From the IMG/VR virus record IMGVR_UViG_3300032050_000182, positions 1-53,456 of that record: DNA of 53,456 nt; one strand, given 5' to 3'. A program made the translations under genes and the position numbers. Each line of letters opens with the position of its first letter. Positions within the stretch are counted from its first letter, which is position 1. This DNA comes from a virus (Duplodnaviria > Caudoviricetes). The notes under the pieces are model-generated. The model had not been told where the DNA came from. It ran no database searches and saw nothing but the letters and a program-made list of their open reading frames with translations. Shown here one piece after another: positions 6,998-31,131 of the stretch.

Positions 6998-9794
6998 TCA
7001 CCAAGTTCTCTACGTTCTCGTCCTTGAATGCGTACGCCCAGACCGGATGGAAACTAGAACCGCCCTTCCAACCTGCGCCGAGACGCTTCTTCTTGGTGTC
7101 AACCAACAACCCCTGTGAAGTCATCACGTGTTCAAACTTGCGGATGCTGATGCCACGTGAGGCCAAGAACTTATTCAGTTCCGTGCGTGATACGTAGTAC
7201 ATCTTTGTATCCATCTCGATACGCCCGATCAACTGCCTCGGGTCGTACTGATTGACCAGACGCTCGCCGTCGAAGATCAAGAACGTGGACTGATTGTTGT
7301 TGCAGAACTCACCAAGCAGAGTCTTGTAGTCGCTCGGGTCAATCTTCACCGCACGGTCGCGGATGTCCATGATGTCAGTCAAGACCTTCTGATAAATGTG
7401 TTCCAGATCAAGGCTGATGATCTCGGCTTCGTTGGCAATCTCACCACCCGCAAACGCCGCTGCCACCAAACTCTCATAGAAGCGATGGCTCACATCGTCA
7501 CCGAAGTCGGCACGGAACCGATACTGCCACTTCTCAATCTTGCGCTTAACCTCATCTACGCCGATCTTATATACGTACTTGATGAACATCGGCCCTGCGT
7601 GCCCATAGTTGAAGCGGAATGGGTTAAACAACTTCATACCCACTTCGCGGGTCAGGCTGTGCGGTCGCTTCACATCAAACTCAACAATACGAGCCACCTC
7701 ACCATCCGGGCTTGCCTTCAGTTGCTGCAACTTATCGTAGAGCGGAGAGTTCGTAGTAAAGATAGCAATCAGCGATGCCGTCATCTCCAAATCACGTTCT
7801 GCGTTGACCGAAGACTGCATACGCAACTTGGCCTTACCCTGCGAGATCCGGTGAGCCAGACGAGAGATAGCCTCGGGGTCTGCGTTCGATGCCTCATCGA
7901 TACCGAGCGGCAGGTTCTTCAGGTTAAGCAAACGTCCAACGAAAGCGTTGTCCGTTGCGTTGCCATCCAACACGCTGAGTTCTCGTGGATCGCCCCAGAT
8001 CGACAAGGCTGAATACATGGCACTCGTCTTACCCGTGCCTGACTCGGCACTAGCGAAGGACACGCATACACCCGCAGTCGGGGTCAGGTACATAAGAGGA
8101 GAGCCGAATCCACAGAGCATACCGAAGGCATGCAACTCATAGCCCGGTGCGTCCAGTGCGTTGGCTGATTCCTTCCACAGATCGTACTCACCAACCGGAT
8201 TCAGCAGTTTAGAAATGTTCCGTACCAACGGACTGGCAGACGCCTTCACCGTTTCTCCGGTCGGGATAATCTCGTTCCCACCAATCACGAACGCATCGTG
8301 ATTCTCTGTCCATCCCATTTGCATACGCATAATTTCGGCCTTGTGTTTGCTCATCAAGTATTGGTTCCACTTGATTACATAGTTCTGTAGGTGAACCAAG
8401 TGGGTCGGAAGAAAGGTAACGCTGTTACTACTAAGGATCTTTTTAAAGAAATCAATGGCGTAGACCCAACTCATCGGCAATATAAATTCACGGAGCGGGT
8501 CGTGCTGCATCAGGTGGCGCATCAACATGCACTCACCGTCCGCTGGGCTATACATTCTCTTAACAGGAAAGAGATCATTAACTGACAGACAGATCGGATC
8601 TTGCTGCTGCTTTATACCTTCCTCGTCCACCTTGGGAGGAGGCACGAAATACACACCCCCGTTGCGGCCACGAGTGTATGGCTTCAAGAATGGTGGGAAT
8701 GTAGGAATCTCTTGGGGATTCTCCGAGAGCCGAACTGTGTCCTCCTCGGACATTTCCTTTGTCGGGGCTTCGACGAGCCGCTTTCCGATAGCAAGTGGGT
8801 TTGTGATTCGTCCCTTGAGGGGGCATCCTTCACAGCCACCGGGGTTGAGTTCGTCAAACTTCTCACACGAGAAGGGCTTACCAAATGCTTGGTTGGCTTT
8901 CTTAACGGTGTTTTCATAGTTATAGCCGGGGTGATCCTCAGACATGAGGTGGATGGCAGATTCCCAATCGGTGCAATGCCGTGCAATCGATAACCCCGCA
9001 TACCACATTGGCTCTTCCAACGTGGCGGCATTCATAAGGATGTGCTTGATCTGAGCGCAGCCCTCGCCGCTCAGACTACTCTCAGCAATGTCTTGGAACG
9101 TGGTCTCGTAGTTGTCGAGCCGCGCTATCTTCTTCGTATCTTCGTCCAAGCCCTTGGGGAACATGTCCAACAGGGACTTAGTATCGGGTTCGACGACACC
9201 CAGAAAGTCCTTGAAGTCTTCAAAACTGTACTGCCCAAAGTCTTCATCAAGCAGGCGAGTCGGTACAGGTTCGTCCTTCTTGTAATTAAACGTCTCAGGA
9301 CAGCGTAGGATTCTCGCTGCATCCGCTGTGACAGCAGGATCAATCTTGATGTGATCCAAACATAACTGTTTGAATTTGAGTGCGTAGGGCTTCCACTCCT
9401 CGGTAGGAATGTCCTGATCAAATAGCCAATACGCATGGACACCGCCGCCCGAATCCACGCGGACTGGAGGCGGAAGACCCACAATAGATATGAAGTCATC
9501 AAGCGAGGCTAATGCCTCTTCCTTGGTGCGGTACTTCTTCGGATTGTCACCTACGTCCAGATCGATAAAGAACGACCGGCAATAGATGGCATTCTCGGCA
9601 CGACGGCTATAGCCGTTGAACGTGTTTAACGCGACGAATACATTTTGGTTTACCTCTTTCAGTCCTTCAACAATTTCAAACAATTCGCCGAGTGTCTCTG
9701 CAAACTCGTTGGTAATCTTACCTTCTCTGTCGATTCCAGCAGCACAGTAAACACCCTGCGACGGCAATGCTTTCTCGTAGAATTCTTTTATCAT
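6978..9794 (-). CDS. Primase-helicase (AEP-type primase N-terminus; DUF927-like NTPase/helicase C-terminus)
   Basis: AEP motifs FFIDLD and DSGGGVHAYW, ARILR; Cys cluster CEKF...CEGC; Walker A ESGTGKTS and Walker B LGIDE. Confidence 0.85.
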   Translation of the reverse strand: MIKEFYEKALPSQGVYCAAGIDREGKITNEFAETLGELFEIVEGLKEVNQNVFVALNTFNGYSRRAENAIYCRSFFIDLDVGDNPKKYRTKEEALASLDDFISIVGLPPPVRVDSGGGVHAYWLFDQDIPTEEWKPYALKFKQLCLDHIKIDPAVTADAARILRCPETFNYKKDEPVPTRLLDEDFGQYSFEDFKDFLGVVEPDTKSLLDMFPKGLDEDTKKIARLDNYETTFQDIAESSLSGEGCAQIKHILMNAATLEEPMWYAGLSIARHCTDWESAIHLMSEDHPGYNYENTVKKANQAFGKPFSCEKFDELNPGGCEGCPLKGRITNPLAIGKRLVEAPTKEMSEEDTVRLSENPQEIPTFPPFLKPYTRGRNGGVYFVPPPKVDEEGIKQQQDPICLSVNDLFPVKRMYSPADGECMLMRHLMQHDPLREFILPMSWVYAIDFFKKILSSNSVTFLPTHLVHLQNYVIKWNQYLMSKHKAEIMRMQMGWTENHDAFVIGGNEIIPTGETVKASASPLVRNISKLLNPVGEYDLWKESANALDAPGYELHAFGMLCGFGSPLMYLTPTAGVCVSFASAESGTGKTSAMYSALSIWGDPRELSVLDGNATDNAFVGRLLNLKNLPLGIDEASNADPEAISRLAHRISQGKAKLRMQSSVNAERDLEMTASLIAIFTTNSPLYDKLQQLKASPDGEVARIVEFDVKRPHSLTREVGMKLFNPFRFNYGHAGPMFIKYVYKIGVDEVKRKIEKWQYRFRADFGDDVSHRFYESLVAAAFAGGEIANEAEIISLDLEHIYQKVLTDIMDIRDRAVKIDPSDYKTLLGEFCNNNQSTFLIFDGERLVNQYDPRQLIGRIEMDTKMYYVSRTELNKFLASRGISIRKFEHVMTSQGLLVDTKKKRLGAGWKGGSSFHPVWAYAFKDENVENLVNELRKD

Positions 9795-11039: not shown

Positions 11040-11435
11040 TTAACTTGCTTTACGTACTGACACGCCATACTCACGCATGACGTTTACACCGGGAGGGAGG
11101 CCGTCTCCCTCGTTATCATCCAAGAACTGCTTGAAGTTACCCTGATGGATACGCTTCTCAAGAAGTTGGACTGCATCGTGATCTAGAACAAACTTGTAGA
11201 AGTTGTCCCAGTCGGTGCAGAAATACTTCTCCTTCAACCTACGCATGACTGTGCCATGTGAAGTCTTGATGCTATCGGCATTCACCGAATTGCAGACATC
11301 CAACATAGCAGCCTCTAACTTCACCATCTCGTTCTCCAGTTCTTTGTCAGCCGCTTCGTATTCACGGAGAATTGCTTCGCGCTGATTACGGATCTGAAGA
11401 TACGCATTCACCAAATCTTCGGTATTGATACTCAT
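11040..11435 (-). CDS. Conserved phage replication-module protein
   Basis: 131 aa, N-terminal coiled coil then SIKTSHGTV...DWDNFY...LLEKRI...PPGVN; RBS GAGGTG. Confidence 0.6.
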   Translation of the reverse strand: MSINTEDLVNAYLQIRNQREAILREYEAADKELENEMVKLEAAMLDVCNSVNADSIKTSHGTVMRRLKEKYFCTDWDNFYKFVLDHDAVQLLEKRIHQGNFKQFLDDNEGDGLPPGVNVMREYGVSVRKAS

Positions 11436-11436
11436 C

Positions 11437-13023
11437 TCACACCTCGTCTAATTCCTGTTTATACAAGTCCACAATCTTCTGGTGGCTATCCACCTTTCCT
11501 TGCAACATCGAATACATCTTTCTCTCAACGTCAGAACCTTGGAGATGCACCACAGTCATCTTGTTCTGTTGTCCCACTCGGTCGATTCGCCCAATACATT
11601 GCAGGTAGGTCTCGACTGACATCACCGGAGACCAGAACACAATCGTGTCTGCGGCAGTCAGCGTGATACCGTGCGATGCAGATTGAGGCTGAATCACTAG
11701 CACTCGCGGATCAGGAGCCGTCTGGAATTTATTGACGATCTCCGATCTACCTTGTGCGCTAACAGAGCCTTGAATAACTGCGGTTGATATCCCTTGCTTT
11801 CTCAAGTACGCCACGACTACATCAATAGTGTGGATGTACGGAACGAATATTACTACTTTGTTGGACGTTTCGTCTAGTACTTCTTGCAAAGCATTTAGGC
11901 GAGGGGAGACATCGAACTCCACAACGTCATGCTTGTCGGTGTAGACCGCACCGCCTGAAATCTGTAGCAACTTGTTGAGACTGGCTGCGGCATTGACCGC
12001 GCTGATTTGTTCACCCGCTGCTTCGATAAGAAGTTGTTGCCTCAACGCCTTGTAGTACTGAGCTACTTGTGTCGTGAGTGGAACATCGCGTGTCTGATAA
12101 GTAAGTTCTGGAAGATCCAGACAGTCTTTCTTGCAATGCCGCACGGCGGGTTGCAGCGCATTGAAGACCTCGACCTGTGCCGTAGGCTTCGGCAACCACT
12201 TAAACCGAGTGACCGGATACATCACCCTGTCACGCCACGCCGTCGTGAACTTCGGAACCCGGTACGGCGAAACAAGTTTAGCAATGCCAAACGCATCGAC
12301 CGGAGACTGCGAGGCCGGTGTGCCGGTCATCATCCACAGCCACGTGTGGGGCTGAATCAATTTGGCCAGAGTCTTCCAACGCCGAGTCGATGTGGCCTTG
12401 TATGCGTTCGCTTCGTCTACGATGATCAGGTCGTAGTTAGCCTCAAGCAGTTCTTTGAAGACGATATGTGTGCCGTCAAAGTTGATGATCGTGAAGTCGG
12501 CATTGTCATCGATTAGATTCTTGCGCTTGGTAGCCGAGCCGTGAGCGATGGCGCAGCGACGGTGCATTGCTGTCTTGAAGATGTCTGCTTGCCACGCCGA
12601 GTACATGATCGACAACGGGCAGATCACAAGTACCTTCTTGATAATGCCTTGGTTCATCAGGTAGTCAGCCGCCCAGATCGCCGCTGATGTCTTACCTGTA
12701 CCTGCCTCGTTGAAACAGAACGCACGGGGTCGGAGCGACAGGAACGATGCCGTATCCCGCTGATGTTCAAACGGTGTGTGGAATCCCGGCCATGCGTAAT
12801 CTCGCATAATGGGCGAGGGGATCTTTGGCAGCGACGGGTTGGGTTGTTCTAGATCAAAGATCGTTGCCAACTTCATCGCTTCTTGGTGTCCCCAGTACAC
12901 CAACAATTCTTTGTAATCCTCGTCCGACTTCAGGATCTCGCACTTCTCAATGCGTGAGTAGGCTTCATCCGCTATCTGCGGATTCACCTGAAACTGAAGT
13001 GCTGTGTTCTCAATTACTTGCAT
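11437..13023 (-). CDS. SNF2-family (SF2) DNA helicase
   Basis: Motif I EAGTGKT, motif II IIVDEAN, motif III MTGTP, motif VI QCIGRIDRVGQ. Confidence 0.9.
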   Translation of the reverse strand: MQVIENTALQFQVNPQIADEAYSRIEKCEILKSDEDYKELLVYWGHQEAMKLATIFDLEQPNPSLPKIPSPIMRDYAWPGFHTPFEHQRDTASFLSLRPRAFCFNEAGTGKTSAAIWAADYLMNQGIIKKVLVICPLSIMYSAWQADIFKTAMHRRCAIAHGSATKRKNLIDDNADFTIINFDGTHIVFKELLEANYDLIIVDEANAYKATSTRRWKTLAKLIQPHTWLWMMTGTPASQSPVDAFGIAKLVSPYRVPKFTTAWRDRVMYPVTRFKWLPKPTAQVEVFNALQPAVRHCKKDCLDLPELTYQTRDVPLTTQVAQYYKALRQQLLIEAAGEQISAVNAAASLNKLLQISGGAVYTDKHDVVEFDVSPRLNALQEVLDETSNKVVIFVPYIHTIDVVVAYLRKQGISTAVIQGSVSAQGRSEIVNKFQTAPDPRVLVIQPQSASHGITLTAADTIVFWSPVMSVETYLQCIGRIDRVGQQNKMTVVHLQGSDVERKMYSMLQGKVDSHQKIVDLYKQELDEV

Positions 13024-13056
13024 TATATAAACCTAACTATACACCTACGCTGAATT

Positions 13057-13076
13057 AAAAAGCCCGTAACGTGGGC
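13057..13076 (-). terminator. Intrinsic terminator ending the candidate sRNA
   Basis: GCCC-ACGTTAC-GGGC-TTTTT on the minus strand; short stem. Confidence 0.6.
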
Positions 13077-13211
13077 CAGTCGTCTGAAGCATGGGAGAAA
13101 GTGTAAGACCATCTTCAGATGACGCAGTTAATTTGTTGGGTGGACTAAACCCTGTGGGTGAGGTGTGAATGACCCACGCCGCTATGGTCACTTGCGCCTT
13201 AGCCAAGCGGC
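13057..13211 (-). ncRNA. Candidate multi-hairpin small RNA with anti-RBS loops
   Basis: Non-coding gap bounded by a sigma70-like promoter (predicted +1 near 13211) and a terminator; stem-loops at 13178-13211, 13154-13177, 13138-13152 and 13079-13123; loops complementary to phage RBS regions. Confidence 0.65.
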
Positions 13212-13217
13212 ATAGAA

Positions 13218-13246
13218 TTTATAAGGACTCCTTACCCATTAGTCAA
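13218..13246 (-). promoter_or_regulatory. Sigma70-like promoter
   Basis: TTGACT-17 nt-TATAAA. Confidence 0.7.
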
Positions 13247-13250
13247 CCCT

Positions 13251-13505
13251 TTACTTCATGGAGCCGTCAGACTTTCTTCGGAAGGAGCGGTTCTTGCCGG
13301 GTGACTCAAGACGAGTTCCCTGCTTGTTGCTGCCGCCCTTCGATAGTGCTTTGACATGGGCAACGTCCTTACCGTTTCGGCTAATACCTTTCTTATCGTA
13401 GGAACGACGCGCTCGCTGGCGCTCCATGCGGTTCTCGTGTTCGCCTCTTTCGACCTGCTGCTTGTACTCTTTTTTGTACGGGCGGCTCTTGTTCACGTAC
13501 GGCAT
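13251..13505 (-). CDS. HNH-like small basic protein
   Basis: GKDVAHVKALSKGGSN...NRS pattern typical of phage HNH-fold proteins. Confidence 0.65.
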   Translation of the reverse strand: MPYVNKSRPYKKEYKQQVERGEHENRMERQRARRSYDKKGISRNGKDVAHVKALSKGGSNKQGTRLESPGKNRSFRRKSDGSMK

Positions 13506-14165
13506 CTATCTTCCTCCAAAATACTTGCATGACTCGACCGGGCAATGCTTGCGGCACAAGCCTGTCGGATTCGGTGGCCAGATCGCATTGTCGAACGCGA
13601 TGTGTAGCCTTTCAAGATCTGTCTCAAACGACTTCCAAAGTACGTCAGACGACTCCCGATGATACTCCTCCGTCACGAAAGCATTGTGTAGAAGAAACAT
13701 CAACGCTGACTTGATCTGAGCTACCTCGGGAAAGTGTGCAAACACCATCAGTCCCATCAACTTCAACTGATTCGGGTCGGCATACGTCGGCTTGCCTGTC
13801 TTGTAGTCCACGATGAATGCCGTGTCCCCGTCGATCACAAGCAAGTCGGCGATGCCCCTTACCCAATAAGTCTCGCCATGAAAGTCGCAGGGCTTCCGAT
13901 CAATGTCGAGAGCCATCTCATGTTCGCAATACCTCGTGCCCGGTATCTCTAGCAGCGGGTCAACCATCTTCCGAAAGTCATCGTAGAACCTCGGCAGCGG
14001 TGTCCCGTCTCTTACGTAATGCTCTAGTGCCGTGTGAACTTCCTTACCGTACCGGGCATCGTCGCCCTCTCTGGATATAAAGTTCTTAGCGACACGGATC
14101 TCATAGTACTGACGCGGACAAGTCTTGTACTGCTTGAGACTACTGTAACTCCATCTAATCATCAA
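13506..14165 (-). CDS. PD-(D/E)XK Cas4/RecB-like exonuclease
   Basis: WSYSSL..Y..CP, GKEVH, RGIADL, IVDYKTGK, QL, C-terminal C..C..C. Confidence 0.85.
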   Translation of the reverse strand: MMIRWSYSSLKQYKTCPRQYYEIRVAKNFISREGDDARYGKEVHTALEHYVRDGTPLPRFYDDFRKMVDPLLEIPGTRYCEHEMALDIDRKPCDFHGETYWVRGIADLLVIDGDTAFIVDYKTGKPTYADPNQLKLMGLMVFAHFPEVAQIKSALMFLLHNAFVTEEYHRESSDVLWKSFETDLERLHIAFDNAIWPPNPTGLCRKHCPVESCKYFGGR

Positions 14166-14628
14166 AACTGCCCCACATTACTTCGTTGTAGTCAAATGTG
14201 TTTTCAAAGCAGTCCTCAATAAACACAAGATTGTTGCTAAACCCTTCAACGGTATTGTTGTAGGTATAAACCTTGTGGGGAATGTTGATCTCCCTACGAT
14301 AGAACTGCCAACCTTTCTGGGTCGGTTTCCACAAACCGCTGTACTTGGTTTTGTTCACATCGTTCTTGTGGCATCGTTCGACCAAACCCCACCATGCTAA
14401 TGTAGGTAGTTGGTTGGTTCGTACGATGGATCGCGGCGCGGTATTGGGTACATCAACCCATGCGTCCGGGTCTTGCAACGCTTCTCGGCACAACCAGATC
14501 AATGAACGTGCCATCGTCATATTTAGGGAGCGTCCGTAGACTTTGCCCCAACGATCACAAACGGGGCACACACCGCCCTCATCGTGAATAGTATGTTCCC
14601 AGTCTTCTCTCAACTTTCTCAATTCCAT
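14155..14628 (-). CDS. Hypothetical protein with CxxC
   Basis: 157 aa ORF tightly packed between polymerase and exonuclease; CPVC. Confidence 0.6.
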   Translation of the reverse strand: MELRKLREDWEHTIHDEGGVCPVCDRWGKVYGRSLNMTMARSLIWLCREALQDPDAWVDVPNTAPRSIVRTNQLPTLAWWGLVERCHKNDVNKTKYSGLWKPTQKGWQFYRREINIPHKVYTYNNTVEGFSNNLVFIEDCFENTFDYNEVMWGSFDD

Positions 14629-23358: not shown

Positions 23359-24366
23359 TCAAACCTCAATCATGTAAGTATGTTTCTCTGCCCAGTACGT
23401 AACAGCAGACGCACCCATGTCTCGCCAAGTCGTTGATGCGTGATCTCCGCGAGGGAAGAGTGTGTTCTGTCCCGTGTGTGCCTTCAGCATGGCGAGCGAT
23501 GCCATGACTGATGTACGCAGATCTTCAGGGAGATCGTCGAGACTTTTGTACCACATGCCGCTGCCCAACTGCGGCTTGCCATGCAGCGTACGTTCAGCCA
23601 CGAGACCTCTAAAATCCGTATGCCGATTACGCTTCACCTGATTAAGAAAGTCTTTGCAGATATCAGCAGGACAGTACGTCACGTTGATCCCACCATACAG
23701 ATCATTTGTGATCAGCACCTTGTCACGAGAATAGAACGACTCGACATCTTCAAAGTCGATAGCCCGCTGCTCCTCTAATTGTTTGCGTTCCTTGACTCGT
23801 GAGGCACACTCAGCCCGTGTGTATTGGCTAAGATCTGCACTAGTGATCTCACCTTCTGCGAGTAGTGCAAGTTCAAGCAACAAGTCGCCGTTTATCCGTT
23901 CGTATGACGAATCATTTTCCGTCAATTTCGGATAGTTGTCGTTGAGTACTCTGCTGATCATCTCACTCACTCGCTTGATCATGGCGTGTTCTGCCTGTAC
24001 CACTTCAGCCTTCACTTCATCCTTGAATGAAGTCTTAATCTTGTTGGCCAGATACTTGGGCTTATCACTACGCAAGTCAGCCCTACCTGCATTGACGTAG
24101 GTGTAGTAGTCATGGGCGAATGGATTGCTCGTAAACTTGAGCGCGTAGTACGAACGCTTCTCCGTCTGTTGCCGATAGACGAACCCGATCTGCAACCCAT
24201 CCTCCAATGCAAAGTGCATGTTCCCTGCCTCCGTCAGTTCTGCGATGCGGATCTTTCCTTCCGAGACGTTATGCAGCGCAGCGTACACAGGCCACAACGC
24301 ATGACGAGTGATGGCAAGTTTCTCTTGATCAGAGTACTTACCGTTCAAAAAGAATTGCTCAAACAT
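23359..24366 (-). CDS. Hypothetical protein
   Basis: 335 aa with strong RBS GGAGGTG. Confidence 0.75.
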   Translation of the reverse strand: MFEQFFLNGKYSDQEKLAITRHALWPVYAALHNVSEGKIRIAELTEAGNMHFALEDGLQIGFVYRQQTEKRSYYALKFTSNPFAHDYYTYVNAGRADLRSDKPKYLANKIKTSFKDEVKAEVVQAEHAMIKRVSEMISRVLNDNYPKLTENDSSYERINGDLLLELALLAEGEITSADLSQYTRAECASRVKERKQLEEQRAIDFEDVESFYSRDKVLITNDLYGGINVTYCPADICKDFLNQVKRNRHTDFRGLVAERTLHGKPQLGSGMWYKSLDDLPEDLRTSVMASLAMLKAHTGQNTLFPRGDHASTTWRDMGASAVTYWAEKHTYMIEV

Positions 24367-24577
24367 GATTCACCTCCTCTGCCAAAACCCATTTTTCAGA
24401 ATCTCCAAAGACTTCTTCGACCCACACAGCGAGCGGTTTATGTCCGCTGACGAACCCCTCTACCCACTCTTCCGTGGATTGAGTCAAGCCCCGCACAATC
24501 TCGTCAGCCTTGTCACTTTCGATGTCATCTACTCCATCAAACTCAAACACAACCAACACTTGCATCTTCTTACTCAT
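24359..24577 (-). CDS. Hypothetical acidic protein
   Basis: 72 aa, GAGGTGTGAGATG junction. Confidence 0.65.
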   Translation of the reverse strand: MSKKMQVLVVFEFDGVDDIESDKADEIVRGLTQSTEEWVEGFVSGHKPLAVWVEEVFGDSEKWVLAEEVNHV

Positions 24578-24578
24578 C

Positions 24579-24737
24579 TCACACCTCTTGAGTCCGTAGT
24601 ACTTTCATATCCTCACGCATCTTGCGTGCTTGCTCGATGCGTGCCAAAGTTTTCCTATCCTGTTCAAGAACATAATTAGTCACGTGTGTGCGCTTGAAGT
24701 CAGGTGGAGGGATTAACTCTTCCTCCTTCTTACTCAT
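24579..24737 (-). CDS. Small hypothetical protein (52 aa, MSKKEEELIPPPDFKR...TQEV)
   Basis: Below cutoff; fills the gap exactly between two GAGGTGTGAGATG junctions. Confidence 0.65.
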   Translation of the reverse strand: MSKKEEELIPPPDFKRTHVTNYVLEQDRKTLARIEQARKMREDMKVLRTQEV

Positions 24738-24738
24738 C

Positions 24739-25944
24739 TCACACCTCCATCTTCACAAGCCGACCACTCGGCGGGGTAAAGTCACGAGCCATCGTCACCA
24801 TCCACAGCGTCGGGATGTTCGTCTGCCATCTGATGTTGTCCTCAACGTATCCGTCCGTGAACACAACCAAGCACTCGGCGTTGGAGTTCTCGCTGCATAA
24901 CAGTTCACTCACAGATGAAACCCTAGTTCCACCACCACCCTCGGGCTTCAGCATCGTTGCCAGTCCGTCGTAGTTGTCGCTGAATACTTGCTCACCTCGT
25001 ACCTGATGATCCCACCAGATCACTCGCACCCGATCAGGTGACGCCATGTCGCAGATCGATATCATCTCGGTCGCAAACTCAGTCAACTCACGGCTGCCGA
25101 TACTGCCGGACGTATCGATGGCGATGATGATCTCGCTCACCTTCTCCGCTTCCAGAGTTGGCAAGTAAACATCATCAACCATGCGACGACGATTCATCTT
25201 GCGCCACGTGTACTCATCTCGCCCCTTCGTGGTGGATGACACAAACTCACGCAACTCGTCACGCCACGATACCTTTGGTGTCATCAAGTCTTGGATGACG
25301 CGCGGTACTTTGACGCCAAACTTCCCGGCCAACATCGCACCCTGTTGGATAGCCTCGCTGATCTCGTCGGACAACTTCCGTACATCCTCAACGCTCGCAC
25401 CGGCCAACGCTTCCGCATCATGCTCGTCGAGAGGCTGCATCTCCTCGGGGTTCTTCCCGCTGCCTGTACCTTGTCCACCTTGTCCGTTACCTTTCTTCTT
25501 GCGCTTGTCCATCTCTGCCTTGAGATCGTTGTACACCTCACGCACCGACCAGTTGTGGTACTTGGCATCGTACAGCCCACCTTTCGGCAACTTGACCAGA
25601 TCAGGAGCCTTCTTGCCGATCTCTGTGATGATGTCATTGATCACAAAGTCCATCGCCACGTTAGCGAGTCGCGGGTTCTCCTTCACCAAGTCCATGTGAC
25701 GAGGGATGTGCTTCAAGAACACGTGACCATTCTCGTGCAGCACCAACGCAGATTGCTCGGGCAACGTCAAAGATTGAAAGAACTCACGACCATACCGTTT
25801 GTTCTTGCCATCCGTGTACGCTGTCGGGATGCCGTCTTCGATGGTCGATTCACCCATCAACATGATCCCACCGTACAAACAAGTCTCGGGGTGGCGCATC
25901 AGTCGGATGTGTGCCTTCTTCAATGCTGTGTTTGCGTCAGTCAT
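24739..25944 (-). CDS. DUF2201-like metallopeptidase + vWA domain protein
   Basis: PTAYTDG, HEXXH (LHENGH), MIDAS IDTSGS, GGGGT, VFTDGY. Confidence 0.85.
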   Translation of the reverse strand: MTDANTALKKAHIRLMRHPETCLYGGIMLMGESTIEDGIPTAYTDGKNKRYGREFFQSLTLPEQSALVLHENGHVFLKHIPRHMDLVKENPRLANVAMDFVINDIITEIGKKAPDLVKLPKGGLYDAKYHNWSVREVYNDLKAEMDKRKKKGNGQGGQGTGSGKNPEEMQPLDEHDAEALAGASVEDVRKLSDEISEAIQQGAMLAGKFGVKVPRVIQDLMTPKVSWRDELREFVSSTTKGRDEYTWRKMNRRRMVDDVYLPTLEAEKVSEIIIAIDTSGSIGSRELTEFATEMISICDMASPDRVRVIWWDHQVRGEQVFSDNYDGLATMLKPEGGGGTRVSSVSELLCSENSNAECLVVFTDGYVEDNIRWQTNIPTLWMVTMARDFTPPSGRLVKMEV

Positions 25945-26120
25945 AACGTCACTTCCTCTTGCTTGACGACGATTGTGTAACCCAACTCTTTGATCAGAGA
26001 TAATTCTGTACGAGTGAATGTCCTACGATGTGCGAGTCTTGCCAACAACGCAGCCTTCACGCACTCGGGATAGAACCGCTCTGTCCCATACTGTTCTCGA
26101 CGAGTGATCACGATCTCCAT
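25941..26120 (-). CDS. Small phage protein (59 aa, MEIVITRREQYGTERFYPEC...LGYTIVV)
   Basis: Below cutoff; RBS GGAGGTG; ATGA overlap with the vWA gene. Confidence 0.7.
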   Translation of the reverse strand: MEIVITRREQYGTERFYPECVKAALLARLAHRRTFTRTELSLIKELGYTIVVKQEEVTL

Positions 26121-26132
26121 GTCACACCTCCG

Positions 26133-27218
26133 TCAGATCAACAACTCATAGTTGCTCTTTGCCCACTCGCTCACCTGTGAGTTCAGTCTTGCGATACGGC
26201 TCGTGCGCTTGCTCTGCAACAGCATCGTGAAGAACACGGCTTGCACCTCGGACGATCTCACGCGATTGACGAACCGCATGAACTTGCTCAAGTCATCTTG
26301 TGTTTCGATCACATCGATGGCGTTGAACATCGTCATGAACAACGCAGCCGGTCGCTCGGGTATCTCCACGTTGTCGGGATCAGCCAAGATTTGTTTGACC
26401 GATACCAACTCTTTCTCTAGTGCCAAGAACGCAGCCATTGATTCAGCCGCAGCCACGCCAATCGTACCGGCCAAGGATGAGTGAGTCAGTTTCGATCCGA
26501 TCAGATCACGCTTGCGAACAATCGGATCAGCCTTGGCGAGACTACGTGGTGAGACGAATGACAGGATGCGATTACCCGGCTTGAAGATGAACGGATTATC
26601 TTCCTGCCCACCGTCAAGGTACGACGCGAGACAACGAGGATTCATCGCCACCCATGCACGAATGACAGCAGAGATGCCATTGTCCGTTGCCCACGTGTTC
26701 CACATTTTCTCGTTCGACTTGCTGACGTTGATGATCGTCACGCGATTGCCGCCGTGTGCGAGGATCGCATCACCCACACCGTCAGAGAAGTTATTAGTTG
26801 TTGCGAACACCATTGAACCATCGGGGAGTTCCTCGTCACCCAACACGTGATCCAACACGAGACGCATCGCCATCTTCTGCATCATCTTGTCGCACTTGCC
26901 GATCTCGTCGAGCATGATGATCTTCGGCTTGCGTGACTTCATCTTGAAGATAGATGACGGATAGAACTCCAACTCACCTGTCTCCCGATTCGGAGCGCGG
27001 ATGAACAAGTCACCCAAGTCCGTGTTGGAGAAGTCCACGTAGATGTGGTCGTACTTGTCGGCGGGAAAGTCTATGTCTGACTTCAGCCGTGAGTGAAGTG
27101 ATGATTTGCCGATACCCGGCTCGCCAACGAACAAGAACGTGTTGCTCGTGCCGAGAGTCTTGACCAACGTATACGCCTCGTCGATGGTGACGGGGTTAGC
27201 GAACAGATTGATAGCCAT
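26133..27218 (-). CDS. MoxR/CobS-like AAA+ ATPase
   Basis: Walker A GEPGIGKS, Walker B IIMLDE, sensor ATTN, SPRS; adjacent to vWA gene. Confidence 0.85.
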   Translation of the reverse strand: MAINLFANPVTIDEAYTLVKTLGTSNTFLFVGEPGIGKSSLHSRLKSDIDFPADKYDHIYVDFSNTDLGDLFIRAPNRETGELEFYPSSIFKMKSRKPKIIMLDEIGKCDKMMQKMAMRLVLDHVLGDEELPDGSMVFATTNNFSDGVGDAILAHGGNRVTIINVSKSNEKMWNTWATDNGISAVIRAWVAMNPRCLASYLDGGQEDNPFIFKPGNRILSFVSPRSLAKADPIVRKRDLIGSKLTHSSLAGTIGVAAAESMAAFLALEKELVSVKQILADPDNVEIPERPAALFMTMFNAIDVIETQDDLSKFMRFVNRVRSSEVQAVFFTMLLQSKRTSRIARLNSQVSEWAKSNYELLI

Positions 27219-27292
27219 TACACTTTTCTCCTAATGGTTTACTAAATCAAACGTATAAATTCTGGAGGATTGAAATCATCATTTCAGTCTCC

Positions 27293-28219: not shown

Positions 28220-28292
28220 TTATCTCCTAGTTCATGTCCAAGTGAATCGTTAGTTAGTCCAGTTGCTTACTCATCCCTACGTCTATGTTCAT

Positions 28293-28353: not shown

Positions 28354-28503
28354 TCAGAAGGCTCCCTCTGTTACTTCCCACGCACTTTGCCACCCCCCAT
28401 TACTCTGCACTTTTTCGAGCAACTCTTTCCGCTCCATGTATTCAAGTTCTAACTCACGCTGATATGCAGCCGCTTCGATGGCGGCCATCTCTTCATCTTC
28501 CAT
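28354..28503 (-). CDS. Small acidic hypothetical protein (49 aa)
   Basis: Below cutoff; MEDEEMAAIEAAAYQRELELEY..., overlaps upstream stop. Confidence 0.45.
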   Translation of the reverse strand: MEDEEMAAIEAAAYQRELELEYMERKELLEKVQSNGGWQSAWEVTEGAF

Positions 28504-28699
28504 CGATCTTTCTCTCAAGAATTACTCGCAGCATTGCCTTCTTGATATGCAGCGGTACGGGTGTTCTGAACCCGTCCAGAAAAGTCTCACGTGGCAAAAA
28601 TACATACTGATCTGGACTGTCTTTGCCCACCGAATACCGCAACGCCGACTCTGGCAGCGTGAACGGCATCGGATCTTTTGCGCTGTTGATCTTCTTCAT
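28493..28699 (-). CDS. Hypothetical protein
   Basis: 68 aa, GGAGGTGTGAGATG junction. Confidence 0.65.
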   Translation of the reverse strand: MKKINSAKDPMPFTLPESALRYSVGKDSPDQYVFLPRETFLDGFRTPVPLHIKKAMLRVILERKIDGR

Positions 28700-28700
28700 C

Positions 28701-28856
28701 TCACACCTCCTCGGCTGTCTTGATTTGAAACTCTGCGTCGATACCTTTCTTAAAGAAGTGAGTCAGAGTCTCCCACTCCGCATCAGACAGTTCCTCACGG
28801 TTCCTCAACAGCGTGAGAATCCAACTCATTTCGTCTCGTGCTTCTTGCTCGGTCAT
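28701..28856 (-). CDS. Hypothetical protein (51 aa, MTEQEARDEMSWIL...AEEV)
   Basis: ATGA overlap with upstream stop; the longer listed ORF overlaps the zinc-finger gene. Confidence 0.6.
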   Translation of the reverse strand: MTEQEARDEMSWILTLLRNREELSDAEWETLTHFFKKGIDAEFQIKTAEEV

Positions 28857-31080: not shown

Positions 31081-31131
31081 CTGTGTAGTCCTATGTTGAA
31101 TGCGCCGCGCGGTATTGCGTGGCGTGGAATT

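What the first reader, a model, noticed from the sequence alone, without database searches (positions are those of the whole stretch)
13057..13246. Phage small RNA whose hairpin loops are antisense to the phage's own ribosome-binding sites
Seen: promoter TTGACT-17-TATAAA puts +1 at the first base of hairpin 1 (13211); four stem-loops, an AU-rich linker and a terminator follow. Loop 2 (CAUUCACACCUC, 13171-13160) contains the exact complement of GAGGTGTGA, the RBS of five minus-strand genes (11437-11445, 24579-24587, 24739-24747, 26122-26130, 28701-28709), and its CAU can reach the AUG with one bulge. Loop 4 (UUACACUUUCUCC, 13106-13094) complements the AAA ATPase RBS GGAGAAAAGTGTAA (27218-27231) with one bulge. 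Loop 3 (UUAGUCC) matches the DUF3150-like leader (28254-28261) and partly the RBS at 31083-31091; this match is short and weaker. Inference: a trans-acting multi-seed sRNA made from a middle promoter shuts off translation of early genes, with one loop per RBS class. An alternative is targeting of host mRNAs. I know of no described phage system with this layout.
Basis: partly seen in the sequence, partly recalled or inferred. Interest (0 to 1): 0.92.

Follow-up and report, generated by a model that had tools for sequence, protein, structure and literature searches.

The report
Pseudoknotted phage RNA matching own RBSs
Between two replication-module genes this uncultured freshwater phage carries a conserved, pseudoknotted RNA of about 155 bases, found in many related phages, whose exposed pyrimidine-rich loops are complementary to the ribosome-binding sites of the phage's own upstream genes, so it probably switches those genes off.

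Summary
A promoter-like site, four hairpins, a terminator and the loop/RBS complementarities are at the stated coordinates.

The loop of hairpin 1 pairs with the "AU-rich linker" to form an H-type pseudoknot.

This is a large RNA family with no match in Rfam 15. I found 151 instances and 100 distinct sequences in IMG/VR phage contigs, with strong covariation. Nearly all lie just upstream of an SNF2 helicase gene.

Only 16 of 100 have a promoter-like site and 11 of 100 a U-tract. The discrete promoter-to-terminator sRNA is therefore a lineage feature.

In 17 near-complete genomes, each RNA matches its own genome's translation-initiation regions (TIRs) more than other genomes' (0 of 20000 permutations). 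Hits cluster in a pyrimidine-rich stretch of hairpin P5 and fall on same-strand, mostly upstream genes (63 of 67). The TIR of an orthologous ATPase gene covaries with the seed (1 of 50000).

Best reading, about 0.5: an anti-RBS regulatory RNA on a pseudoknot scaffold.

Loop 3, the "HNH" label and "one loop per RBS class" are not supported. Expression is untested.

The parts
13241..13246 (-). -35-like hexamer TTGACT
   Evidence: Read. Identical in L004-L006 while the spacer differs. My scorer gives 10 of 12. Not listed by the consensus scan.
13218..13223 (-). -10-like hexamer TATAAA, 17-nt spacer
   Evidence: It lacks the conserved final T, so it is a 5-of-6 match.
13057..13211 (-). Predicted RNA of about 155 nt, from the inferred +1 to the end of the U-tract
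   Evidence: Fold. Covariance model R1 matches 13079-13212 at 62.6 bits, E = 2.3e-13, and this is the only match in the window. The ends are inferred, not measured.
13178..13211 (-). Outer stem P0 (13211-13206 with 13183-13178). Its loop region encloses P1 and the 5' strand of the pseudoknot. Seen only in the window lineage and in L007.
   Evidence: Read from the alignment, one C-G to U-A compensatory change against L004-L006.
13186..13204 (-). P1 hairpin (13204-13200 with 13190-13186, one C.A mismatch) whose loop holds the pseudoknot strand
   Evidence: A P1 of at least 4 bp enclosing the pseudoknot strand is found in 97 of 100 distinct members, with different sequences. Read from the alignment, there is a G-C to A-U change against L004.
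13193..13198 (-). Pseudoknot 5' strand GGCGCA
   Evidence: Pairs with 13126-13121. In alignment A2, 99.2% of cells are paired and 5 of 6 pairs change on both sides.
13121..13126 (-).
   Evidence: The MFE fold uses 3 of these bases to extend P5, a pairing that is not conserved in relatives.
13189..13192 (-). Near-invariant AGUG
   Evidence: A 99, G 100, U 100 and G 99 of 100 in alignment A4. GTG is invariant in A2 and A3.
13127..13129 (-). Invariant AAC just before the pseudoknot 3' strand
   Evidence: Invariant in A2 and A3.
13154..13177 (-). P3 hairpin. Loop at 13171-13160; seed UCACACCUC at 13168-13160.
   Evidence: Read from the alignment, the stem shows a U-A to A-U compensatory change against L004.
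13138..13152 (-). P4 hairpin (loop UUAGUCC), optional in the family
   Evidence: It is absent from many members. Its complementarity to TIRs is at chance level.
13083..13119 (-). P5 long hairpin. Loop at 13108-13095; pyrimidine-rich seed at about 13106-13093.
   Evidence: In A4, 85.7% of cells are paired and 11 of 11 pairs change on both sides.
13057..13076 (-). P6 hairpin (13076-13073 with 13065-13062) plus U5: terminator-like here
   Evidence: In one search the downstream fold is -4.4 kcal/mol or lower in 95 of 100 members, usually a CCCC-GUAA-GGGG hairpin, but only 11 of 100 have at least 5 U in the next 8 nt.
11437..11445 (-). Candidate target: GAGGTGTGA at the TIR of the 131-aa gene (11040-11435)
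24579..24587 (-). Candidate target: TIR of the 72-aa gene (24359-24577)
24739..24747 (-). Candidate target: TIR of the 52-aa gene (24579-24737)
26122..26130 (-). Candidate target: TIR of the 59-aa gene (25941-26120)
28701..28709 (-). Candidate target: TIR of the 68-aa ORF (28493-28699)
   Evidence: My gene caller did not call this ORF, so only 4 of the 5 sites are in my TIR set.
27218..27231 (-). Candidate target: TIR of the ATPase gene (26133-27218), complementary to the P5 loop with one bulge
11437..13023 (-). Downstream gene: SNF2-family helicase, 528 aa
   Evidence: Pfam SNF2-rel_dom and Helicase_C.
13251..13505 (-). Upstream gene: small basic protein, 84 aa, function unknown
   Evidence: No Pfam family. 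Matches phrog_4590 of unknown function, E = 2.5e-7.

Best explanation
The region encodes one member of a large family of structured RNAs, absent from Rfam 15, found in uncultured tailed phages.

ARCHITECTURE
- A 5' hairpin (P1) whose loop pairs with a downstream strand, forming an H-type pseudoknot.
- One or two variable hairpins (P3, P4).
- A long hairpin (P5) that displays a pyrimidine-rich, anti-Shine-Dalgarno-like stretch.
- A 3' hairpin (P6).

WHAT IS SHOWN
- The conserved fold.
- The genome-specific complementarity between exposed stretches and the phage's own TIRs.

WHAT IS INFERRED
- The exposed pyrimidine-rich stretches pair with the SD and spacer of a set of the phage's own genes. 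In this window these stretches are the P3 loop UCACACCUC and the P5 loop UUACACUUUCUCC.
- The target genes lie on the same strand, mostly several kb upstream. In the window they are five small genes and an ATPase gene.
- Pairing blocks ribosome access once the RNA accumulates, giving a post-transcriptional shut-off of an earlier gene set.
- In this lineage the RNA has its own promoter-like site and terminator, so it would be a discrete RNA of about 155 nt. In most relatives it lies inside an operon transcript and would act after processing or as part of the mRNA.
- The pseudoknot/P6 scaffold most likely serves folding, stability or binding of a protein partner.
For: FAMILY AND FOLD
- 63 of 80 SNF2-anchored loci carry the RNA.
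- All 89 loci fetched by sequence pattern have a model match: 88 full-length and 1 cut at its 5' end.
- There are 151 instances and 100 distinct cores.
- In a sample chosen through the SNF2 protein rather than the RNA, the pseudoknot is 99.2% paired and 5 of 6 pairs change on both sides. The covariation score is 0.674, against 0.286 +/- 0.014 in shuffles (0 of 500) and at most 0.203 when partners are slid.
- P5 has 11 of 11 pairs with changes on both sides.
- P1 is present in 97 of 100 members.
- The G-U pairs fit only the gene-sense strand.
- A 1-nt indel against L004-L006 rules out the overlapping 53-aa ORF as a coding gene.
- There is one copy per genome in 17 of 17 records.

PAIRING
- Window loop 2 against its own TIRs: -14.9 against -11.4 +/- 1.2 kcal/mol, 0 of 200 shuffles.
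- In 17 genomes, TIRs holding a perfect complement to the genome's own RNA exceed cross-genome pairings. At 8 nt the diagonal is 112 against 67.8 +/- 9.2. At 9 nt it is 40 against 17.9 +/- 4.3. Both give 0 of 20000 permutations.
- The result is unchanged after dropping windows within 300 nt of the RNA locus.
- It still holds with SD-independent start calls: 2 of 20000 at 8 nt and 300 of 20000 at 9 nt.
- Own mid-gene controls give 36 (8 nt) and 6 (9 nt).
- Orientation controls at 8 nt: 112 real, 31 reversed, 58 complemented, 67 sense.
- Matches sit at positions -8 to -15 and extend 3' of the SD core, where by my reading of the recalled 16S 3' tail the rRNA could not pair. Examples are CGAGGUAGC, UUGGAGAUCA, CAGGAGAAACC, GGAGAAAGCG and AAAGGAGAAGU.
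- 63 of 67 seed hits are on the RNA's strand, against 33.7 expected. Most lie 1-16 kb upstream.
- The ATPase orthologue TIR has 8-9 nt matches to its own genome's seed in 6 of 13 genomes, each with a different sequence. The diagonal is 95 against 78.5 +/- 3.7, 1 of 50000.
Against: - There is no transcript evidence. The only RNA-library data are low-depth contigs of a relative, and they run through the promoter.
- Gene starts come from my own crude caller.
- The signal is uneven. G010, G011, G014 and G018 have 1-2 seed hits, and G001 has none at 9 nt.
- The orthologue test for the 131-aa gene is weak: 6.29 own against 5.52 cross.
- Part of the complementarity is generic anti-SD against SD.
- The sense control is high, 67 at 8 nt. 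I attribute part of this to the downstream TIR overlapping the 3' extension I added to each RNA.
- An elaborate conserved tertiary scaffold is unusual for a plain base-pairing sRNA.
- 84 of 100 members lack a promoter-like site and 89 of 100 lack a U-tract.
- The RNA nearly always sits just 5' of a helicase gene, which suits a cis element.
- One copy lies in a bacterial chromosome outside any visible prophage.
Confidence: 0.5

Rival explanations
1. Cis-acting leader. The structured RNA would be a 5' UTR element (riboswitch-like or protein-binding operator/attenuator) that controls transcription read-through or translation of the gene just downstream, usually the SNF2 helicase. The loop/RBS matches would be a by-product of an anti-SD-like element.
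For: - SNF2 starts within about 75-145 nt of the motif end in 80 of 89 pattern-fetched loci.
- Other downstream genes are a DNA-polymerase-like ORF (L136/L147) and a UvrD-like helicase IV in a bacterial chromosome.
- Most members sit inside an operon without their own promoter or terminator.
- The pseudoknot, invariant unpaired AGUG/AAC and GNRA-capped P6 look like a ligand- or protein-binding fold.
- In the window a terminator stands between the RNA and a gene with a weak RBS.
- One clade (L011, L020-L025, L059, L061) shows better-than-cross pairing of P5 with its own SD.
Against: - Across 88 members the RNA pairs no better with its own downstream TIR than with others'. Own mean is -10.5 and cross mean -11.0 kcal/mol, mean z is +0.15 and median rank 0.59.
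- Members whose SNF2 gene has no visible SD (L046, L047, L053) keep the pyrimidine-rich stretch.
- Downstream genes are not functionally uniform. They include an 86-aa ORF, a Cys-rich small ORF, a 103-aa ORF, SIMPL/DUF541 and an epimerase.
- This reading does not explain complementarity to distant upstream TIRs that is specific to the RNA's own genome.
Confidence: 0.2
2. RNA processing or stability element. It would be a self-cleaving ribozyme, or a nuclease-blocking fold that cuts or protects the polycistronic transcript at the boundary before the helicase gene.
For: - It has an intercistronic position, with the RNA starting 11-17 nt after the upstream stop codon in many members.
- It has a complex conserved fold with a few invariant unpaired nucleotides.
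- There is no match to any Rfam family.
- Pseudoknots that block exonucleases are known in RNA viruses (PMC11702639; search listing and start of abstract only).
Against: - No resemblance to a known ribozyme class was detected by Rfam models at E up to 10 in the region, or up to 1 in seven relatives.
- It does not explain TIR complementarity specific to the RNA's own genome.
- Members with their own promoter placed at P1 (12 of 100) would not need 5' processing.
Confidence: 0.1
3. Anti-SD mimic aimed elsewhere. The pyrimidine-rich loops would target host mRNAs, or titrate a host factor that binds CU-rich RNA. The matches to phage TIRs would follow from the phage sharing the host's SD usage.
For: - The seeds contain CUCC/CCUC cores complementary to any strong SD.
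- TIRs of other genomes are also enriched over mid-gene windows: off-diagonal mean 3.82 against own mid-gene mean about 2.1 at 8 nt.
- A chromosomal copy exists in a bacterium.
Against: - The own-genome excess and the covarying extensions 3' of the SD core are not predicted.
- Hits are confined to one strand and one region of the phage genome.
- Host genomes are unknown, so host targets could not be scanned.
Confidence: 0.1
4. Ordinary intergenic region: a promoter and a terminator with incidental hairpins, and chance loop matches.
For: The MFE z-score is only -2.70. Short complementarities are easy to find after the fact. Loop 3 is at chance level.
Against: Covariation is strong in 40 and 100 sequences. 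There are full-length model matches at E of 1e-8 to 1e-23 in 151 loci. Permutation tests give 0 of 20000.
Confidence: 0.02

Closest known systems
c4 antisense RNA of phages P1/P7 (Rfam C4; the accession is recalled, not checked)
   Same: A phage-encoded structured RNA whose loop sequences pair with complementary stretches around a ribosome-binding site of the phage's own mRNA and block translation (PMC12197685, passages read). By recall, it is made from the same transcription unit as its target.
   Different: - No match to any Rfam model at E up to 10 in the region, or up to 1 in seven relatives.
- The scaffold is different: an H-type pseudoknot plus a long P5 hairpin.
- Candidate targets are many genes, mostly kilobases upstream, not one adjacent operon.
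- The seed is anti-SD-like.
- By recall, c4 serves immunity in temperate phages. No lysogeny genes were looked for here.
C-rich-loop sRNAs of Gram-positive bacteria that pair with SD sequences (RNAIII/Rsa RNAs of Staphylococcus aureus, RoxS of Bacillus); recalled, no paper read
   Same: Pyrimidine-rich unpaired loops act as seeds against the SD of several mRNAs. More than one seed sits on one RNA.
   Different: Those are host-encoded hairpin-only RNAs with no conserved pseudoknot, and their targets are host genes. Here the RNA is phage-encoded and the seed extension covaries with the phage's own TIRs.
T4 RegB endoribonuclease (functional analogue)
   Same: It inactivates a set of early phage mRNAs through their SD. 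Strong sites share an extended motif beyond GGAG (PMC3014915, passages read). The logic is the same: a class of phage TIRs carries an address that is read later in infection.
   Different: RegB is a protein nuclease assisted by ribosomal protein S1. No RegB-like gene was sought in the window.
Candidate structured RNAs catalogued from IMG/VR (Fremin et al. 2023, PMC10690425)
   Same: Same data source, and the same kind of object: conserved structured RNAs in uncultured phages, some just upstream of replication genes such as gp32 (passages read).
   Different: The main text has no occurrence of 'helicase' or 'HNH'. Whether this motif is among the more than ten thousand candidates could not be checked, because the supplements are closed. 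No function of this kind is proposed in the passages I saw.

Membership tests
Any Rfam 15 family (including C4, known ribozymes and riboswitches) | Match to the family's covariance model | tested here: not met
   No match at gathering score in the whole window. No minus-strand match at E up to 10 in 12900-13400. No match at E up to 1 in seven diverse members.
H-type pseudoknot RNA | A hairpin loop pairs with a downstream single strand, supported by covariation | tested here: met
   In 40 sequences, 99.2% of cells are paired and 5 of 6 pairs change on both sides. The enclosing P1 is present in 97 of 100 members.
Trans-acting base-pairing sRNA | Own promoter and Rho-independent terminator that define a discrete transcript | tested here: inconclusive
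   The window has a 10-of-12 promoter-like site, conserved in L004-L006, and a hairpin plus U5. Family-wide only 16 of 100 and 11 of 100 members have these. No transcript ends were measured.
Trans-acting base-pairing sRNA | An accessible seed complementary to targets, with seed and target covarying | tested here: met
   Seeds lie in predicted loops. Own-versus-cross permutations give 0 of 20000. The ATPase orthologue gives 1 of 50000. This evidence is statistical only.
Trans-acting base-pairing sRNA | Dependence on a chaperone (Hfq/ProQ), and a measured effect on target translation or stability | not testable with these tools
   The phage is uncultured and the host unknown.
c4-type phage antisense RNA | Target sites lie in the same operon just downstream, overlapping the RBS of the next gene | tested here: not met
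   There is no own-versus-cross advantage for the downstream TIR in 88 members. Most seed hits lie 1-16 kb upstream. The gene after SNF2 is hit in the window, G008 and G017 only.
Riboswitch / cis-regulatory leader | Consistent position 5' of functionally related genes, plus an expression platform that competes with the conserved fold | tested here: inconclusive
   The position 5' of SNF2 holds in 80 of 89 loci, but other contexts are heterogeneous. No covarying anti-SD/SD pairing with the downstream gene was found. Ligand binding is not testable here.
Intrinsic terminator (P6 in the window) | A GC-rich hairpin followed by a U-tract | tested here: met
   The scan lists 13077-13061 followed by TTTTT. 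This is a minority trait in the family (11 of 100).
Protein-coding small ORF (53 aa, 13045-13206, minus strand) | The frame is conserved in relatives | tested here: not met
   A 1-nt indel inside the ORF against L004-L006. Read from the same alignment, the substitutions keep base pairs rather than a reading frame.

The most novel reading that the evidence does not exclude
A widespread, undescribed class of phage RNA in which a conserved pseudoknot scaffold displays a fast-evolving anti-RBS seed. The seed would co-evolve with an extended 'address' in the Shine-Dalgarno/spacer region of a block of the phage's own upstream (presumably early) genes. One RNA would then impose a timed, post-transcriptional shut-off on a whole gene class, doing with RNA what T4 does with the RegB nuclease. 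A copy in a bacterial chromosome, next to a helicase and an SRA-HNH nuclease, raises the further possibility that hosts capture such RNAs to silence incoming phages.
Probability: 0.4. Interest if true: 0.9.

Novelty: new variant of a known kind. Interest (0 to 1): 0.8.

Why it matters
Temporal control in phages is usually explained by promoters, sigma or anti-sigma factors, and a few nucleases. Few phage-encoded RNAs are known to regulate the phage's own genes, and each acts on one locus.

If this reading is right, three things follow:
- A single conserved RNA defines a post-transcriptional regulon in a large group of abundant freshwater and marine phages.
- The 'regulon membership' is readable directly from genome sequence as an extended RBS motif.
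- It gives a natural example of seed and target co-evolving across many genomes. It also gives a compact scaffold that presents a programmable anti-RBS seed, which could be useful for silencing genes in phages that cannot be manipulated genetically.

Independently of function, the family is a well-supported new structured RNA. It has a pseudoknot, invariant unpaired nucleotides and a GNRA-capped hairpin, and it is absent from Rfam 15.

Tried and rejected
- DNA search of the phage collection with 12700-13600 found nothing.
- ARAGORN found no tRNA or tmRNA.
- Rfam gave nothing. Three plus-strand matches at E of 5.7-9.8 (a thermometer and two snoRNAs) are noise.
- Coding reading of the region. 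The 53-aa minus-strand ORF is rejected because of a 1-nt indel in L004-L006. The plus-strand 61-aa ORF 13169-13354, whose 'RBS' is the antisense of loop 2, is rejected because, by my reading of the alignment, the SD-ATG spacing collapses in L004-L006.
- Extension of P5 by GUC/GAC, as in the MFE fold, is rejected because relatives do not keep it and those bases belong to the pseudoknot.
- Loop 2/RBS covariation in the closest relative was uninformative. The loop C-to-U change still allows a G.U pair with the unchanged GAGGTGTGA sites.
- SD sequestration of the downstream gene in cis shows no family-wide signal.
- Duplex-energy tests with long P5 segments were insensitive. For G005-G007, own energies were no better than shuffles, although exact-match analysis found clear seeds.
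- RNA evidence. One metatranscriptome run (X19) holds low-depth contigs of a relative, 17 pieces mostly 90-95% alike. Among them are 13110-13320 and 12926-13065. A second run (X20) is probably DNA. Contigs show no ends, strand or level, and DNA carry-over cannot be excluded, so they neither support nor oppose expression.
- MAFFT alignments mixed the registers of P1 and P3. I therefore tested P1 per sequence instead and did not test P3 or P4 for covariation.
- The pseudoknot counts in alignment A4 are biased, because 80 loci were fetched with a fixed pseudoknot sequence. I rely on A2 for the pseudoknot.
- The genome-contig scan gave 18 pattern hits. Only 5 are strong model matches (49.6-72.7 bits), 2 more are weak (17.8-18.6 bits, E about 0.006-0.009), and 11 have no match at E up to 0.01. 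By my arithmetic the chance expectation for this pattern is of that order, so I take all 13 as chance matches.
- Literature searches found no description of this RNA. A 2026 preprint on helicase-associated ncRNAs concerns PhoH2, not this RNA (passages).
- The host could not be assigned.
- No structure prediction or complex prediction was run.
Full report
WHAT IS THERE

The finding lies in a 227-nt gap on the minus strand. The gap separates an 84-aa gene (13251-13505) from a 528-aa SNF2-family helicase gene (11437-13023). The small gene has no Pfam match.

The sequence reads TTGACT (13246-13241), a 17-nt spacer, and TATAAA (13223-13218). After that comes a structured stretch that ends in a GC hairpin and five U (13076-13057). 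No tRNA, tmRNA or Rfam family matches.

THE LOOP MATCHES

GAGGTGTGA occurs six times against 0.64 expected. The five minus-strand copies all read GAGGTGTGA[G/C]ATG. That is an SD, then TGA, one base, then the start codon, and each copy precedes a small ORF of 52-131 aa. At 11437 the TGA is the stop codon of the SNF2 ORF.

- Loop 2 pairs with the window's TIRs better than any of 200 shuffled loops.
- Loop 4 matches the ATPase TIR as 9 + 4 bp with one bulge. As a whole loop it is marginal (0.065).
- Loop 3 is at chance level (0.715).

A FAMILY, AND A PSEUDOKNOT

Searching IMG/VR with the SNF2 protein gave 105 matches, of which 80 loci were kept. The closest distinct relatives (L004-L006, 84.5% identical across the element) show the following:
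- Both promoter hexamers are kept while the spacer differs.
- Read from the alignment, compensatory changes occur in P0, P1 and P3.
- A 1-nt indel breaks the overlapping 53-aa ORF.

More distant loci share a motif in which a hairpin loop reading AA-GGCRYR-AGUG is followed later by UAAC-YRYGYC. The two hexamers covary, for example GGCGCA/UGCGUC, GGCAUG/CAUGCC and GACGUG/CACGUC.

On 40 sequences chosen through the protein, not the RNA:
- The long-range helix is 99.2% paired, and 5 of 6 pairs change on both sides.
- P5 is 86% paired, and 12 of 12 pairs change on both sides.
- The covariation score is 0.674. Shuffles give 0.286 +/- 0.014 (0 of 500) and slid partners give at most 0.203.

AGUG and AAC next to it are essentially invariant.

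A covariance model, R1, gave these results:
- One match in the window, and one match in each of the 16 other whole records.
- A match in 63 of the 80 SNF2 loci. Sixteen lack it and one is cut off.
- A match in all 89 loci fetched by two sequence patterns.

Together that is 151 instances and 100 distinct cores. P5 covaries in the 100-sequence alignment, with 11 of 11 pairs changing on both sides. P1 is present in 97 of 100. Seven diverse members have no Rfam match at E up to 1.

CONTEXT

Of the 89 pattern-fetched loci:
- 80 have SNF2 starting about 75-145 nt after the motif.
- 3 are cut by the locus end.
- 6 have other neighbours. These are a DNA-polymerase-like ORF, an 86-aa ORF and a Cys-rich small ORF. 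In that last phage the small gene and SNF2 sit adjacent elsewhere without the RNA.

Only 16 of 100 distinct members have a promoter-like site of at least 10 of 12, and in 12 of them it is placed right at P1. Only 11 of 100 have at least 5 U after P6. P6 is usually a CCCC-GUAA-GGGG hairpin and so looks like a structural module.

The window's promoter-to-terminator layout is therefore a lineage feature.

A scan of bacterial genomes gave five strong model matches:
- One lies in the chromosome of Methylophilales HTCC2181. It sits between a sortase gene and a 955-aa UvrD-like helicase IV gene, next to an SRA-HNH nuclease gene and then pheT/pheS/thrS. No phage genes are visible there.
- Three lie on short MAG contigs with non-SNF2 neighbours, or no nearby ORF.
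- One lies on a short MAG contig with the usual small gene and SNF2.

DOES IT PAIR WITH RBSs?

In cis, no. Across 88 members the RNA pairs no better with its own downstream TIR than with others'.

In trans, I fetched 16 further whole or near-whole records. I called genes with a simple scheme of my own.

In most genomes the TIRs with at least 8 nt of perfect complementarity to the RNA pile up on one pyrimidine-rich stretch. It is usually inside P5, and the match covers the SD and the spacer 3' of it. Examples:

| Genome | RNA stretch | TIR motif | TIRs |
|---|---|---|---|
| G004 | AUCUCGCUACCUCG | CGAGGUAGC | 4, one with 13 nt |
| G005 | CUGAUCUCCAA | UUGGAGAUCA | 7 |
| G006 | GGUUUCUCCUG | CAGGAGAAACC | 3 |
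| G009 | CGCUUUCUCC | GGAGAAAGCG | 5 |
| G013 | ACUUCUCCUUU | AAAGGAGAAGU | 8 |

Tests of this signal:
- Own-genome counts exceed cross-genome ones. At 8 nt the diagonal is 112 against 67.8 +/- 9.2, and at 9 nt it is 40 against 17.9 +/- 4.3. Both give 0 of 20000 permutations.
- Dropping windows near the RNA locus changes nothing.
- Replacing my start calls with SD-independent ones keeps the effect: 2 of 20000 at 8 nt and 300 of 20000 at 9 nt.
- Mid-gene and orientation controls are lower.
- 63 of 67 seed hits lie on the RNA's strand, against 33.7 expected. Most are 1-16 kb upstream in the direction of transcription.
- The orthologue of the window's ATPase gene exists in 13 of 17 genomes. In 6 of them its TIR has an 8-9 nt match to that genome's own seed, with a different sequence each time. 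The diagonal is 95 against 78.5 +/- 3.7, 1 of 50000.

Against this reading:
- Four genomes show little or nothing (G010, G011, G014, G018).
- G001 has none at 9 nt.
- The 131-aa orthologue test is weak.
- The gene calls are crude.
- Part of the signal is generic anti-SD against SD pairing.

READING

The fold and the family are secure. The genome-specific, covarying complementarity to the SD/spacer of a block of same-strand, mostly upstream genes is most simply explained by base pairing that blocks ribosome binding.

- The family-wide seed sits in P5.
- Loop 2 ranks as the top seed only in the window, and loop 3 is not supported.
- The RNA is usually embedded in an operon.

The conserved pseudoknot/P6 scaffold remains unexplained. 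The near-constant position 5' of a helicase gene keeps a cis-regulatory role alive as the main rival, and the two roles could coexist.

Expression is untested. The only RNA-library material is low-depth contigs of a relative, without ends or strand.

KNOWN RELATIVES IN CONCEPT

- The c4 RNA of P1/P7 has loops that pair with an RBS region (PMC12197685, passages read). The Rfam search found no match to any family, so membership fails.
- T4 RegB inactivates early mRNAs through an extended SD motif (PMC3014915, passages read).
- C-rich-loop sRNAs of Gram-positive bacteria also resemble it (recalled only).

I found no description of this RNA. It may sit unnamed in the supplementary catalogue of PMC10690425, which I could not open.

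VERDICT

- Real feature: about 0.97.
- Anti-RBS pairing as its function: about 0.5.
- It is a new RNA family and a new variant of a known regulatory principle.
- Interest: 0.8.

Noticed in passing
L271 7314-7420 (= G019:C3:1071314-1071420); L285 1-17801: A full-length copy of the RNA (49.6 bits) lies in the chromosome of Methylophilales bacterium HTCC2181. It sits between a sortase gene and a 955-aa UvrD-like helicase IV gene with a topoisomerase-type zinc ribbon. Next come an SRA-HNH nuclease gene and then pheT, pheS and thrS. No phage genes are visible. It may be a small defence-like island, or a captured phage RNA.
   Followed up: partly
L136 and L147 (RNA at oriented 2678-2783 and 7511-7616); L121 and L176: In the phages where the RNA is not next to SNF2, a short sequence (AGCCGTGTTGGTA-like) appears both just before the RNA and about 100-200 nt after it. 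These look like flanking direct repeats. They could be recombination scars from relocation of the RNA module, or a repeated regulatory site.
   Followed up: no
window 11437-11445, 24579-24587, 24739-24747, 26122-26130, 28701-28709: The recurrent 13-nt junction GAGGTGTGA[G/C]ATG looks like an SD, an upstream stop codon and a start codon together, i.e. a translational-coupling cassette. Two of the five copies continue identically into the coding region (ATGAGTAAGAAG), which suggests local duplication of small genes.
   Followed up: partly
window 13021-13045 and the TIRs listed: SNF2 TIRs across the family share a pattern YAGU-(A)AAGGA-YAGU-AUG, that is AGU on both sides of the SD. The window version is UAGUUAGGU, with an unusually long 8-nt spacer before the AUG. 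The meaning is unknown.
   Followed up: no
window 13169-13354 (+): The antisense of loop 2 reads GAGGTGTGAATG, which looks like an RBS plus a start codon for a 61-aa plus-strand ORF. The SD-ATG spacing collapses in L004-L006, so it is probably not a gene. The RNA seeds could have arisen as inverted copies of a TIR. In G004 the antisense of the seed is identical to one TIR over 13 nt, up to the start codon.
   Followed up: partly
L012, L013, L023 (P5 region): In this clade the 5' strand AUAGGU of P5b can pair either with CCUAG or with an upstream ACCU(C), giving two mutually exclusive helices. This may be a conformational switch inside P5.
   Followed up: no
window 11400-14600: DNA runs from freshwater and lake metagenomes, and some labelled fungus metagenome, hold 91-96% of the sampled words of this stretch. 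That is 18 runs, within the 14 studies that one search counts over all 20 holding runs. The phage is widespread and nearly identical across samples. The best holder may be the source sample.
   Followed up: no
window 11040-11435 (-): The 131-aa gene just after SNF2 matches phrog_13900, annotated 'minor head protein' (E = 4e-26). Pfam gives a weak, below-cutoff hit to a Mu Gam/Sipho_Gp157-like domain. Its place in the replication module suggests that the PHROG label is doubtful.
   Followed up: no
L008, L026-L028, L030, L031, L033, L037, L049, L050, L054, L070, L077, L078, L080, L081: Sixteen related loci keep the small gene and SNF2 adjacent but have no RNA match. Several have only a short gap or a plain promoter there. 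The RNA has therefore been lost, or was never gained, in some lineages. They form a natural control group.
   Followed up: no
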